A DNA stretch of 64,000 bases. Origin: Octopus vulgaris. Its lineage: Eukaryota. Of this stretch, positions 97 through 36,696 are shown piece after piece. Where the stretch lies: NCBI GenBank assembly GCA_951406725.2, contig OX597826.1, positions 83,080,001-83,144,000 of the forward strand. The letters run 5' to 3'. Under the pieces are notes generated by a model, which saw only the letters and a program-made list of their open reading frames with translations, was not told where the DNA came from and made no database searches. Position 1 is the stretch's first letter. Each line of letters opens with the position of its first letter. Position numbers and translations under genes: made by a program.

Positions 97-577
97 AGTG
101 GTATCATGTACATTGTTTTGTCTTTGTATAAAATATTCTGCTCAATACCACAGCTTTGCTTGTCAGTTGTTTGACTTTAACCAGTTGACCATGTCCTTTA
201 GTGGCTGACGATATGTGCATCTCTGATCACGAGCAGAAGTAGTGGAGAGCATCATAGCCGTGTGTTGAAAAGAATTCTTAGAGGTTTGGATAATTCGCCT
301 TTGGAAACATGGGTGGTTTATTCAACATCCTTAAACAATCATTATTCAGGGACCTTTTGAGCGGGGTAGGCTACTCGACCAGAAGAAAATTCTAAGTGGG
401 CCCCACCTGCAAGGTCATGAGTTATTTATCTTGATATGAGATCACCATGTCATGCACATATGGTTGTGATGCATGTGTCTGGTGTACCCTTATCAGACGG
501 GAAGCCATGATGGGTATATTGGGCTTCGCATATTTTACCCCACTGTCACTTTGATAGCATGCACTACATTCTCACTC
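97..577 (+). mobile_element. Non-autonomous (AAT)n-inserted element, 5'-truncated copy
   Basis: Reverse complement of the copies at 15222-15777 etc.; ends ...CTCACTC|AATAAT; AAT repeats on both sides. Confidence 0.9.
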
Positions 578-603
578 AATAATAATAATAATAATAATAA
601 TAA

Positions 604-623
604 TAACCCTAACCCTAACCCTA
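604..623 (+). repeat. (TAACCC)3 telomere-type hexamers at a LINE 5' junction
   Basis: taaccctaaccctaaccc-ta between (AAT)n and the start of the R4/Dong fragment. Confidence 0.8.
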
Positions 624-1258
624 CCAGGCCAACATATTAGAGAACAGCAGTAGCCCAACATGTCGTGTATGTCAACAACAAAATGAAACCATTGATCATG
701 TTGCCTCCAAGTGCAATCTTCTTGCGCCCACAGAGTATCTCAACAGGCATGATAGAGCTGCACAATATATTCACTGGGTAATTTGCAGAAGCCTGGACTT
801 GCCCCATGATAAAACTGGTGGGAACACAAACTACCTCCAGTGCTTGAAAATGACCACATCTCACTCCTCTGGAACTTCACCATTCAAACTGACAGAAAGA
901 TAGATGCGAATAGGCCAGACATCATAGTAAAAGGCTTCAGACAAAAAACATGCCTCCTCATTGATATGACTGTCCCAATCGATATAAACGTATCTGTCAA
1001 GACCTACCAGAAACTGAGCAAATATAAAGATCTGGAAATAGAAATCAGCAAAATGTGGAACCTGAAGACTAAAACAATACCTGTTGTCATAGGCGCCATG
1101 GGAATAATAGCAAAAGTGGCTGATAGCTACCTAACTCAGATACCAGGAAACCCAAAAATGGCAGAAATTCAAAAGATAGTGCTCATGGGAACTGCTCATA
1201 TCCTACGCAAAATACTTTCTTTGTAATCTCAAGTTTTAAAACAAACATAATTTTTGTA
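621..1258 (+). mobile_element. R4/Dong-type non-LTR retrotransposon 3' fragment (CCHC + RLE endonuclease)
   Basis: Reads YQANILE..CRVC..ETIDHV..C..RHD..., then ORF 840-1226 LWNFTIQTDRKIDANRPDII..IDMTVP..KLSKYKDL..PVVIGAMG; PD-(D/E)xK-type RLE motif. Confidence 0.9.
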
Positions 1259-1912
1259 TGGTTAAGGAAGAGATGAAAAGCCCAGAAGAAGAGCAAAGAA
1301 GATTGGCTAGAAAAACCGATGCATGGCCGATACCCATGTAGAGTGAACAAACCAGACGTAGAAAAACGAGACACTCATGTATGGATTAAGAACTCAGGAC
1401 TGAAGGCCGAAACCGAAGGTTTTATCATAGCAGCACAAGATCAAAGCTTGGCAACCAGGGCTTACCACAACAAAATAATGAACGATGGCACTGACCCGAA
1501 ATGCAGAATGTGCCATGGGCAGGATGAAACAGTGGACCACATCTTAACTGGATGCCCAGCACTTGCAAAAGCTGAATATATTCATAGACACGATAGAGTA
1601 GCGCAATATATCCATTGGAAGATATGTAAACACTACCAGCTTCCAACTTCAGAAAGATGGTACCAGCATAAACCTGAAGCTGTGACTGGAAAAGATGATG
1701 TAACAGTAATCTGGGACATGCCAACCAACAGCGATAAAGAAACCAAGGCAAACAGGCCGGACATAATCATCAAAGATGTGAAGAATAAAAAATGCTTACT
1801 GACATATGTGACAGTACCATCAGAGAGAAGTGTGTCTATTAAAGAAATTGAGAAGTTATTTAAGTACAAAAACCTAGAAATAGAAGTGACCAAGATGTGA
1901 GGAATTAAAAGC
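1259..1912 (+). mobile_element. R4/Dong-type retrotransposon fragment, second subfamily
   Basis: ORF 1319-1900: ETEGFIIAAQDQ..CRMC..ETVDHILTGC..RHD..NRPDII..KYKNLEIE; 3' end missing. Confidence 0.9.
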
Positions 1913-1929
1913 AGCACAGCACCAGCGGC

Positions 1930-34758: not shown

Positions 34759-34988
34759 TGATAATAATAATAATAAGAAGAAGAAGAAGAAGAAGAAGAA
34801 GAAGAAGAAGAAGAAGAAGAATTATAATAATAATAATAATAATAATAATAATAATAATAATAATAATAATAATAATAATAATAATAATAATAATGATAAT
34901 GATAATAATAATAATAATATTAGTAATAATAATAATAATAATAATAATAATAATAATAATAATAATAATAATAATAATAATAATAATA
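34759..34988 (+). repeat. (AAG)n/(AAT)n compound microsatellite
   Basis: Direct inspection. Confidence 0.95.
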
Positions 34989-34989
34989 T

Positions 34990-36154
34990 TTGGACTGGCC
35001 AAATATCTCGAAATATCGAATGACTGGATGCTAAAGCTCGTGGAAAATCACGAGAGACGAAAGAAGCTTCATTCTATCATAAAGGAAAGCAAAAAATTTG
35101 CTATTGATCTCGTGCAGGATACCCAAACTGAACAACCCGAGGGAAGTACGGCAACTATTATTGCAAAGAAGGTGAAAATGATGGTAATGAAAAAAGCGCA
35201 CGAGCAATTGGCTGATAGGTGAGAGGAGAAACCTCTGCACGGCAAATATGTGACCCGCAGCAAACAAGCTGATGTTGACCAGAAGCAAACTCATCAGTGG
35301 CTACGGAGCTCAGGGCTAAAAGCAGAGAGCGAAGGTTTCATCCTGGCTGCTCAAGATCAAAGCCTATTAACCCGGAACTACCAGGCCAATGTGATGAAAA
35401 ATGGAGCAGACCCAAAATGCCGATTCTGCAACGACATGATTGAAACAGTGGACCACCTAATCTCTGGATGTAAAGTCTTAGCACCAGTGGAGTATAAATT
35501 AAGACATGACAGAGTTGGCCAATATCTACACTGGCTAATAAGTCGGCATTACAATATCAAAACTGCCGACAAGTGGTATAATCACCACCCTGAGGCTGTA
35601 ACTGAAGGAGAAAATGTAACCATTCTGTGGGACTTTCCAGTACATACAGACCGAACCATCAAGGCCAATAAACCAGATATTGTCGTGAAAGACCAAAACA
35701 ATAAAGTTTGCTTATTGATCGACATGAGCATCCCCTGTGATCATAATATCTCAGCGAAAGAGTTTGACAAGCTCAGAAAATATAAAGACCTACTCATTGA
35801 AATTGAGAAAATGTGGCATCTCAAGGCGGTTACAATACCAGTGATCGTAGGAGCACTAGGAATGATCAAGAAGGGAACCGAAAATTATATGAGAATGATC
35901 CCTGGCTTACCATCCCTGCAAGAAGTGCAAAAGATTGTCTTAACTGGTACATCACACGTATTGAGAAGAGCATTGTCGATGTGAGAACTGTTGCTGCTCA
36001 TGTATTTTAATTTAACTTAAAAAAAAAATGAACGAACTACTGAGTTTGGTTTAATGGCCTACCAATATATACTATGAGTTTCTTTGCCCTAGGAGTCGGG
36101 AAGACACTCGGCAAGAAATGGAAGAAAATTTGAAAGAAGAAAAGAAAAAAAAAG
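34990..36154 (+). mobile_element. Young 5'-truncated R4/Dong-type retrotransposon with complete 3' UTR
   Basis: One reading frame 34990-35984 broken only by TGA at 35220-35222 (ADR*EEKPLHGKY); CRFC..HLISGC..RHD..KPDIVV..IDMSIP..KYKDL; (AAT)n on both sides. Confidence 0.95.
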
Positions 36155-36170
36155 TAATAATAATAATAAT

Positions 36171-36696
36171 AAATGCCCTGATGCAGTACCTGGCAGCGAC
36201 TCTCATGGCCTCTCATCTTAACTGATTGGAAGTGTTATCATGTACATTGTTTTGTCTTGGTATAAAAGATGGGCCACAGCAAATATTCTGCTCAATACCA
36301 CAGATTTGCTTGTCAGTTGTTTGACTTTAACCAGTTGAGCATGTCCCTTAGTGGCTGACGATATGTGCATCTCTGATCACGAGCAGAAGTAGTGGGGGAG
36401 CATCATAGCCATGTGTTGAGAGGGATTCTTTGGGGTTTGAATAATTCACCTCTGGAAACATAGGTGTTTCGTTCAACGTCCTTAAACAACCCTTATTCAG
36501 GGACCTTTTGAGTGGGATGGGTTACCCAACCAGAAGAAAATTCTAACTGGGCCCCCACCCGCAAGGTCATGCGCTGTTTATCTTGTTATGAGATCACCAT
36601 GTCGTGCACATATGGTTGTGATGCATGTGCCTGGTGTACCCTTATCAGACGGGTAGTCATGATGGGTATTTGATGGCATGCACTGCTCTCTCACTC
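36171..36696 (+). mobile_element. Non-autonomous (AAT)n-inserted element with intact 5' end and short internal deletion
   Basis: Starts AAATGCCCTGATGCAG like A1/A2, ends CTCTCTCACTC|AATAAT; sits in the AAT tail of the Dong copy. Confidence 0.92.

What the first reader, a model, noticed from the sequence alone, without database searches (positions are those of the whole stretch)
97..36696. A non-coding, non-tRNA ~560-bp element that inserts only into (AAT)n: candidate non-autonomous partner of R4/Dong retrotransposons
Seen: eight copies (97, 3400, 15222, 16000, 16738, 17501, 28425, 36171), all embedded in AAT tracts and all oriented so the AAT strand follows the 3' end, as for the Dong copies. 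The 3' end is fixed (CTCACTC|AAT in the well-preserved copies). The 5' ends are variably truncated, but two independent insertions (15777 and 36171) start at the same base (AAATGCCCTGATGCAG). I see no ORF, no Pol III A/B boxes and no terminal inverted repeats. A possible 3' hairpin is CAGTG..CACTG. Known: Dong of the R4 clade targets TAA repeats by target-primed reverse transcription, which gives 5' truncation. Inference: a SINE-like parasite of a sequence-specific RLE retrotransposon, with an unexplained way of defining its 5' end (own promoter or self-cleavage). Divergence from near-identical to heavily deleted copies implies long activity.
Basis: partly seen in the sequence, partly recalled or inferred. 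Interest (0 to 1): 0.78.

Follow-up and report, generated by a model that had tools for sequence, protein, structure and literature searches.

The report
Non-coding retroposon targeting AAT microsatellites
A 558-base non-coding repeat with at least 14,000 copies in this (likely octopus) genome sits in AAT microsatellites on the same strand as Dong-like retrotransposons and is likely copied by their enzyme, although it has no small-RNA head and no detected shared end with them, which makes it an unusual kind of genomic parasite.

Summary
The element is real and genome-wide. Exact 3' ends number 14,338 and exact 5' heads 6,822; random 10-kb samples suggest about 60,000 copies. The window's 8 copies are at most 6 insertions, because two pairs are one tandem duplication. 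In 100 position-ordered 3' ends, 88 are followed by AAT, 75 have sense AAT upstream, 3 have ATT, 38 start at nt 1-4 and the rest are 5'-truncated. Dong-like LINEs here show the same flank polarity; a tRNA-like-headed SINE shows the opposite. Both the element and the Dong-like LINEs carry tandem duplications of their first bases, and one insertion joins Dong ORF pieces directly to the element. No tail or head homology to the sampled Dong families, no Rfam match, no HDV or hammerhead fold and no Pol III boxes were found. Nt 105-274 are shared (96%) with a MITE. Verdict: a non-autonomous retroposon, likely mobilised by Dong/R4 (about 0.72). The RNA's discrete 5' end is inferred; its source is unknown. 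New variant of a known kind.

The parts
15222..15777 (-). Full-length copy (nt 1-558 of the family; 95.7% to a 49-copy consensus)
16000..16480 (-). 5'-truncated copy starting at nt 79 (97.9% to consensus)
16738..17293 (-). Letter-identical duplicate of 15222-15777 (tandem duplication, not a separate insertion)
17501..17981 (-). Letter-identical duplicate of 16000-16480
97..577 (+). 5'-truncated copy starting at nt 61, with a 16-nt internal deletion; AAT on both sides
3400..3874 (-). 5'-truncated copy starting at nt 90, degenerate 3' end (about 90% to consensus)
28425..28743 (-). Old copy (about 80-82%), starts at nt 59, large internal deletions
36171..36696 (+). Full-length-start copy with a deletion of about 33 nt near the 3' end, inserted in the AAT run behind a Dong-like family A 3' end
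15674..15777 (-). 5' domain (nt 1-104): predicted long hairpin; nt 24-150 nearly free of subfamily variants; first 16-68 nt are what gets tandemly repeated in some copies
15504..15673 (-). Nt 105-274: segment shared at 96% (consensus to consensus) with a 489-bp MITE family
34988..36155 (+). 5'-truncated Dong-like LINE, family A (candidate partner class); full-length members elsewhere have a 1,235-codon frame with RT, CCHC finger and PD..D endonuclease-like motif
27631..28366 (-). 5'-truncated Dong-like LINE, family B (candidate partner class), in AAT

Best explanation
The 558-nt element is a non-coding, high-copy repeat with a fixed 3' end, scattered 5' truncations and sense-strand (AAT)n on both sides, and it is likely a non-autonomous retroposon copied in trans by the Dong/R4-type LINEs of this genome. 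Shown: copy number, flank polarity, truncation pattern, lack of ORF, and the same junction types as Dong-like copies. Inferred: the Dong protein nicks the (ATT)n strand and primes reverse transcription at the element RNA's 3' end; early stops give truncated copies; at the RNA's 5' end the enzyme sometimes jumps back and repeats the first bases. Inferred from those repeats: the RNA has a discrete 5' end at nt 1-3 with no AAU leader. Least certain: how that end is made. I commit to an internal promoter in the conserved first ~150 nt, more likely Pol II type (about 0.45), against cleavage out of host read-through RNA (0.35) or an atypical Pol III promoter (0.15). Recognition by the Dong protein would rest on RNA shape or relaxed specificity, or the partner is a Dong family I did not sample.
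For: Position-ordered 3' ends: 88 of 100 followed by AAT, 75 with AAT upstream, 3 with ATT; starts at nt 1-4 in 38, 5-20 in 15, later in 47. All 3'-intact copies in hand: upstream AAT 136 of 172, ATT 2; downstream AAT 157, ATT 2. Dong-like A/B/C: upstream AAT 44 of 61, ATT 0, downstream AAT 54. Control tRNA-like-headed SINE: opposite polarity, upstream AAT 1 and ATT 18, downstream AAT 1 and ATT 23 of 70. 5' tandem duplications occur in both: Dong 7 of 61, element 4 of 172 by one strict test. In five loci with repeated heads every unit restarts at nt 1-3 and 0 pairs have AAT between units (L328 was picked from a listing because it showed an array). L164 is one AAT-flanked insert of two separate Dong-B ORF pieces joined without AAT to element nt 243-558. 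Among 198 AAT-upstream flanks the large clusters were this element, tails matching Dong-like ORF ends, and reverse-strand SINE-like or Penelope-like ends (56 singletons and several small clusters unassigned). The family-A protein has RVT_1, its closest solved structures are R2 proteins, and Pfam found no AP-endonuclease domain. Recent activity overlaps: identical copies with different flanks on two chromosomes; 98-99% identical Dong-B copies. Nt 24-150 hold 1 of 29 shared variable sites, p=0.003, sites not independent.
Against: No significant similarity to 16 clusters of Dong-like 3' tails (150 tails; one cluster contains the element itself behind a tail) or to three Dong 5' ends. Two weak leads did not hold: family H (42 of 500 shuffles as good) and family E (22 of 30 nt at element nt 485-514; 5 to 156 of 400 shuffles by scoring scheme). 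No LINE-like loose end stood among the listed 3' loose ends in contigs of four runs (1,002 rows not shown). 5' tandem duplication is rarer than in Dong (p=0.008; the Dong set is enriched for full-length copies). About a fifth to a quarter of copies lack AAT upstream. L164 could be two later deletions and is 1 of 100. No promoter motif fits: no B box, one TATAAAAG at nt 91 which is too far inside, and no downstream promoter element by eye. No transcript evidence: the only RNA-guessed host run is contigs and may be DNA. The predicted fold is better than shuffles (z=-3.3), but covariation is not significant once transitions are controlled (12 of 16 versus 85 of 145, p=0.28).
Confidence: 0.72

Rival explanations
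1. Internally deleted derivative (SIDE-like, bipartite) of an older or rare Dong family that I did not sample: head = its 5' end, tail = its 3' UTR.
For: Same insertion signature as Dong. A published library for an octopus lists 51 Dong-R4 consensus families (PMC13282606 supplement row), while I sampled about a dozen tails and three 5' ends. Family E shows a borderline 30-nt match. R2 makes such elements (PMC3414825 abstract).
Against: No match in about 1.3 Mb of loci rich in Dong ends. The element is still active (identical copies) while the young families A, B and C share nothing with it. No HDV-like fold at its 5' end, which R2 SIDEs have. This rival overlaps the best explanation in mechanism and differs in origin.
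Confidence: 0.2
2. SINE-like element of an AP-endonuclease LINE (RTE/CR1/L2/Tx1) whose (AAU)n RNA tail anneals to nicked ATT strands, so that AAT preference comes from tail pairing, not from a Dong endonuclease.
For: RTE, CR1 and Tx1 families are recently active in an octopus (table in PMC13282606). Tx1 lineages target microsatellites (PMC4494074 passages). About 21-25% of copies lack AAT upstream.
Against: No such LINE tail appeared among the multi-member AAT-flank clusters. The tRNA-like-headed SINE in the same loci has ATT, not AAT, on its sense strand. The junction types, and the one chimera, point to Dong.
Confidence: 0.12
3. A DNA-level element (Helitron/Helentron-like or MITE-derived) that prefers AAT.
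For: 170 nt are shared with a MITE at 96%; 5'-variable, 3'-fixed copies also occur in rolling-circle elements (recalled).
Against: No terminal inverted repeats; the MITE's own ends are absent from the element; 5' tandem repeats and inversions (L175, L162) are typical of reverse transcription (recalled); the MITE itself does not lie in AAT arrays.
Confidence: 0.04
4. Merely the 3' UTR of a LINE seen as truncated fragments.
For: One of 100 copies is joined to Dong-B ORF sequence.
Against: 38 of 100 copies start at nt 1-4; 3,062 heads are preceded exactly by AATAAT plus the three-A start; 0 of 30 head-anchored copies continue into shared upstream sequence; Dong-B has its own different 3' UTR.
Confidence: 0.02

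Closest known systems
R2 SIDEs (Short Internally Deleted Elements; PMC3414825, abstract read)
   Same: Non-coding, non-autonomous, moved by a sequence-specific restriction-like-endonuclease LINE into that LINE's target; no small-RNA head.
   Different: SIDEs carry the R2 ribozyme and an R2 or R1 3' end and are rare; this element shows no HDV fold, no detected LINE-derived end, targets a microsatellite and has tens of thousands of copies.
Dong / R4-clade LINEs (PMC3774820, passages and Discussion part 1 read)
   Same: AAT/TAA target, same strand polarity, 5' truncation, tandem 5' duplications.
   Different: No ORF; no sequence similarity to sampled families; silkmoth Dong makes its 5' end with an HDV-like ribozyme, which is not found here.
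Classical SINEs (tRNA, 5S, 7SL heads) and SINEU (PMC4494074, PMC5804259, passages read)
   Same: Short, high-copy, non-coding, LINE-dependent; SINEU shares a target preference with its Tx1 partner.
   Different: No small-RNA-derived head or Pol III boxes, three internal T4 runs, no detected LINE-derived tail.
Mollusc LP-SINEs with a LINE-derived head (PMC4758252, section 10 read)
   Same: Mollusc retroposons of about 500 nt lacking a small-RNA head, possibly Pol II transcribed.
   Different: No head homology shown (their sequences were not compared here); no poly(A) signal; microsatellite target instead of variable TSDs.
Bipartite non-autonomous LINEs of RTE, Ingi, Vingi and R2 (PMC5786205, passages read)
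   Same: ORF-less, likely Pol II, LINE-mobilised.
   Different: That 2018 paper lists only those four clades as making them; R4/Dong is not among them, and bipartite origin is not shown here.

Membership tests
Non-autonomous non-LTR retroposon (broad) | No coding capacity | tested here: met
   Six-frame translation of the consensus has frequent stops; no ORF of 150 aa within a copy
Non-autonomous non-LTR retroposon (broad) | Fixed 3' end with variable 5' truncation | tested here: met
   14,338 exact tails versus 6,822 exact heads
Non-autonomous non-LTR retroposon (broad) | RNA intermediate shown | not testable with these tools
   No raw RNA reads were offered; contigs cannot show it
Classical SINE | Head derived from tRNA, 5S, 7SL or snRNA | tested here: not met
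   ARAGORN none; Rfam none at gathering or meaningful at E<=10; very decayed heads could be missed
Classical SINE | Pol III A and B boxes | tested here: not met
   No B box on either strand; one A-like match at nt 88; T4 runs at 80, 336, 514
Classical SINE | 3' tail homologous to partner LINE | tested here: inconclusive
   None significant in 16 tail clusters; family E borderline; library not exhaustive
SIDE / bipartite non-autonomous LINE | 5' part homologous to partner 5' UTR | tested here: inconclusive
   No match to families A, B, C; other families' 5' ends not obtained
SIDE / bipartite non-autonomous LINE | HDV-like ribozyme at 5' end | tested here: not met
   Descriptor scans found no credible fold with P1 at the 5' end; the descriptor is home-made and gave only a partial, low-scoring hit on Dong A as control
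Dong/R4-mobilised element | Insertion in (AAT/TAA)n with Dong strand polarity | tested here: met
Dong/R4-mobilised element | Dong protein binds and reverse-transcribes the RNA | not testable with these tools
   Only indirect: shared junction types and one chimera
R4/Dong clade (the partner LINEs) | Single ORF with RT, CCHC finger and restriction-like endonuclease, no AP endonuclease | tested here: met
   the endonuclease motif is read by eye from the translation
R4/Dong clade (the partner LINEs) | Phylogenetic placement with named Dong/R4 | not tested
   Label rests on target, domain order and recall; no tree with named references was built
MITE / DNA transposon | Terminal inverted repeats and fixed TSD | tested here: not met
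   Absent from the element; present in the separate 489-bp family that shares nt 105-274

The most novel reading that the evidence does not exclude
The invariant 5' domain is a self-cleaving ribozyme of an undescribed class that cuts the element out of host transcripts at nt 1-3, and the Dong protein accepts a template with no sequence relation to its own 3' UTR, by shape alone: a promoterless, structure-mimicking parasite of a sequence-specific retrotransposon.
Probability: 0.12. Interest if true: 0.87.

Novelty: new variant of a known kind. Interest (0 to 1): 0.6.

Why it matters
LINE partners with restriction-like endonucleases are thought to be strict about their RNA; among them only R2 is listed as having non-autonomous partners, and those are rare and carry R2 ends (PMC5786205, PMC3414825). 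A partner of Dong/R4 with tens of thousands of copies and no detected shared end would extend that list and give a natural test substrate for what R2-group proteins recognise, a question that matters for their use in site-specific gene insertion. It also poses a concrete, cheap question: what makes a discrete RNA 5' end without Pol III boxes or an HDV fold. Caveat: the sequence is probably already in automated repeat libraries as an unclassified SINE or unknown repeat (a 2026 octopus annotation lists 893 recently active unclassified SINE families); Repbase, Dfam and that paper's Zenodo library could not be searched.

Tried and rejected
Rfam and ARAGORN: nothing meaningful. Resemblances to U2, U12, 5S and tRNA-Lys noticed by eye from memory were not supported by those searches and are dropped. 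HDV descriptor scans and hammerhead core patterns: no credible hit; the relaxed hammerhead match at nt 8-62 lacks the conserved core letters. Rfam also did not recognise the Dong-A 5' end, so these negatives are of limited power. Tail homology: family F lead (L036) and family H lead not significant; family E borderline. Covariation: apparent enrichment (12 of 22 versus 85 of 306, p=0.014) vanished with transitions only; the last 119 nt do not fold better than shuffles (z=-1.2) and the 5' hairpin is weak in copy 36171 (z=-0.25). Direction of the 170-nt transfer: not settled; all 30 loci found with the MITE right arm were that same family, whole or partial, with no alternative middle, and diagnostic sites were ambiguous. 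Run X24 (raw DNA reads, same label as the best holder) laid only 8 reads from 1,934 Mb, all partial; unexplained. Literature: ten searches listed no paper that, by title or abstract start, describes this element or a Dong-dependent SINE; the 2015 octopus genome paper is not held, so a recalled octopus SINE name could not be checked. Earlier scan notes: none.
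Full report
Observation. The eight copies are in the window as described. Four of them are two letter-identical pairs in tandem, so at most six insertions are independent. 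A 558-nt consensus from 49 copies has no long frame. ARAGORN and Rfam find nothing meaningful. The window's genome has 2.8 Gb in 227 contigs; I infer an octopus-like host from size and repeat content, which no call names.

Abundance. Exact patterns give 14,338 3' ends, 6,822 heads and 3,062 heads preceded exactly by AATAAT plus the three-A start; reversed controls give 0. In 52 evenly placed 10-kb stretches there were 11 copies (a twelfth hit is the MITE), or about 59,000 genome-wide, Poisson range 30,000-106,000. Fifteen of 24 listed public runs hold half or more of its words, under five organism labels. Copies range from about 80% to the consensus to identical pairs on different chromosomes with different flanks (L129, L131), so activity is both old and recent.

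Insertion pattern. I took the first 100 exact 3' ends on contig C1, chosen by position and not by flank. The next triplet is AAT in 88. Three or more AAT units lie within 30 nt upstream in 75, ATT in 3. The 5' start is nt 1-4 in 38, nt 5-20 in 15 and spread over the rest in 47. This sample needs an exact 19-mer and so leans to younger copies. AAT tracts cover 0.63% of random DNA. Over all 172 3'-intact copies in hand after dropping 17 loci judged duplicates, upstream AAT is 136 and ATT 2. The 5' junction of full-length copies varies: 58 of 95 have the common form.

Candidate partner. Three young LINE families have full-length frames of 1,225-1,318 codons. The family-A protein has RVT_1, hits only R2 structures in the PDB, and shows a CCHC finger and a PD..D motif by eye. 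I call them Dong-like from target and domain order; no tree was built. Their copies have upstream AAT in 44 of 61, ATT in 0, downstream AAT in 54, not different from the element (p=0.29). A tRNA-like-headed SINE in the same loci has the opposite polarity, so polarity is family-specific. Dong-like copies often repeat their first 20-25 bases in tandem (7 of 61). The element does so too, less often (4 of 172; p=0.008), once as an array of more than ten 68-nt units (L328). L164 is one AAT-flanked insert made of two separate Dong-B ORF pieces followed directly by element nt 243-558. Template switching explains it in one event; two later deletions also could.

The RNA's 5' end. In five loci with repeated heads each unit restarts at nt 1-3, and no pair of heads within 200 nt has AAT between them. 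If these repeats are made when the reverse transcriptase runs off the template, the RNA ends there and carries no AAU leader. This follows the reasoning used for R2 junction duplications in PMC3774820 (passages and first part of the Discussion read), which also reports that silkmoth Dong cleaves itself at its 5' junction. The element shows no HDV-like or hammerhead fold by my scans, no B box, three T4 runs and a TATAAAAG at nt 91. Nt 24-150 carry 1 of 29 shared variable sites while private changes are even along the element, which suggests constraint. The whole RNA folds better than 100 shuffles (z=-3.3), with predicted hairpins at nt 5-104 and 116-218 and a long-range stem closing the 3' end, but covariation does not survive a transition control. 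I put an internal promoter of Pol II type at 0.45, cleavage from read-through RNA at 0.35 and an atypical Pol III promoter at 0.15; none is shown.

No shared ends found. Against 150 Dong-like 3' tails in 16 clusters and three 5' ends there was no significant alignment. Family E matches 22 of 30 nt at element nt 485-514, borderline before correction for many comparisons; family H was not significant. Masked loci gave no other relative, and the listed loose ends in contigs of four runs were element variants or AAT. A published octopus library has 51 Dong-R4 families (supplement row of PMC13282606), more than I sampled, so an unsampled partner remains possible.

A shared middle. Loose ends led to a second family: 489 bp, inverted arms of about 115 bp, matching TAA/TTA triplets on both sides in most clear cases, not in AAT arrays, copies about 91% to their consensus. 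It shares element nt 105-274 at 96%. The segment abuts the inner end of the right arm, and element copies reach greater divergence than most MITE copies, so I lean to capture by the MITE (about 0.65); this was not settled.

Comparison and novelty. It works like an R2 SIDE or a SINE but fails or cannot be shown to meet their defining features. PMC5786205 (passages) lists only RTE, Ingi, Vingi and R2 as making ORF-less bipartite partners. Ten library searches listed nothing on this element or a Dong-dependent SINE; I saw listings and abstract starts for most, parts 1-2 of 3 and one supplement search of PMC13282606, the abstract of PMC3414825, one section plus passages of PMC4758252, and passages of PMC9115989, PMC8967140, PMC5804259, PMC4494074 and PMC3747384. 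Repbase, Dfam and subscription journals were out of reach, and the sequence may sit there under another label. Verdict: real; a non-autonomous retroposon likely using Dong/R4 machinery (0.72); new variant of a known kind; interest 0.6.

Noticed in passing
L038:7673-8156 (-); L102-L120; L329-L358: A 489-bp MITE family (ends CACTG...CAGTG, arms of about 115 bp, TAA/TTA flanks, 4,285 first-look candidates) that contains nt 105-274 of the element.
   Followed up: partly
window 15222-18550: A unit of about 1.5 kb (two element copies plus AAT/ATC arrays) is repeated in tandem with letter-identical element copies; recent duplication or assembly duplication.
   Followed up: partly
window 59841-60850: Four or five very short 3' ends of Dong-like family B in one AAT array, followed by a different Dong-like family at 60851-61500.
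   Followed up: partly
L239:2886-3035, L228 5' end, L227 5' end: 5' ends of Dong-like A and C share a GGCTGGACGTG motif and a partial HDV-like arrangement by eye; family B has a much shorter 5' UTR without it. A and C have 5' UTRs of about 1-2 kb.
   Followed up: partly
window 59377-59576; L088, L008: A repeat with a tRNA-like stretch ending at AAT, joined to a reverse-strand segment with a hammerhead-like core; looks like a Penelope-type terminal repeat (label recalled). Rfam did not report it at gathering score.
   Followed up: no
L164:510-1540: AAT-flanked chimera of two non-adjacent Dong-B ORF pieces and the 3' 316 nt of the element.
   Followed up: partly
L328 (G000:C1:30147900-30149900): More than ten tandem copies of the element's first 68 nt in front of a copy.
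   Followed up: yes
L127:2244-2283 (-): A 40-nt stretch resembling element nt 130-172 behind an unrelated repeat and before a GAT/AAC/AAT array; origin unknown.
   Followed up: partly
L203, L184, L215, L228, L232: Some element copies and some Dong-like C copies border (AAG)n instead of (AAT)n, hinting at relaxed targeting or later microsatellite change.
   Followed up: no
window 604-625: Three telomere-like CCCTAA units directly behind the AAT run that follows copy 97-577.
   Followed up: no
window 52356-52723: Tandem pair of a 184-bp SINE-like repeat, with further copies at 26215, 28767, 50578 and 56407.
   Followed up: no
run X24: Raw DNA reads under the same organism label as the best holder almost lack the element (8 partial reads in 1,934 Mb), several showing the MITE junction instead.
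   Followed up: no
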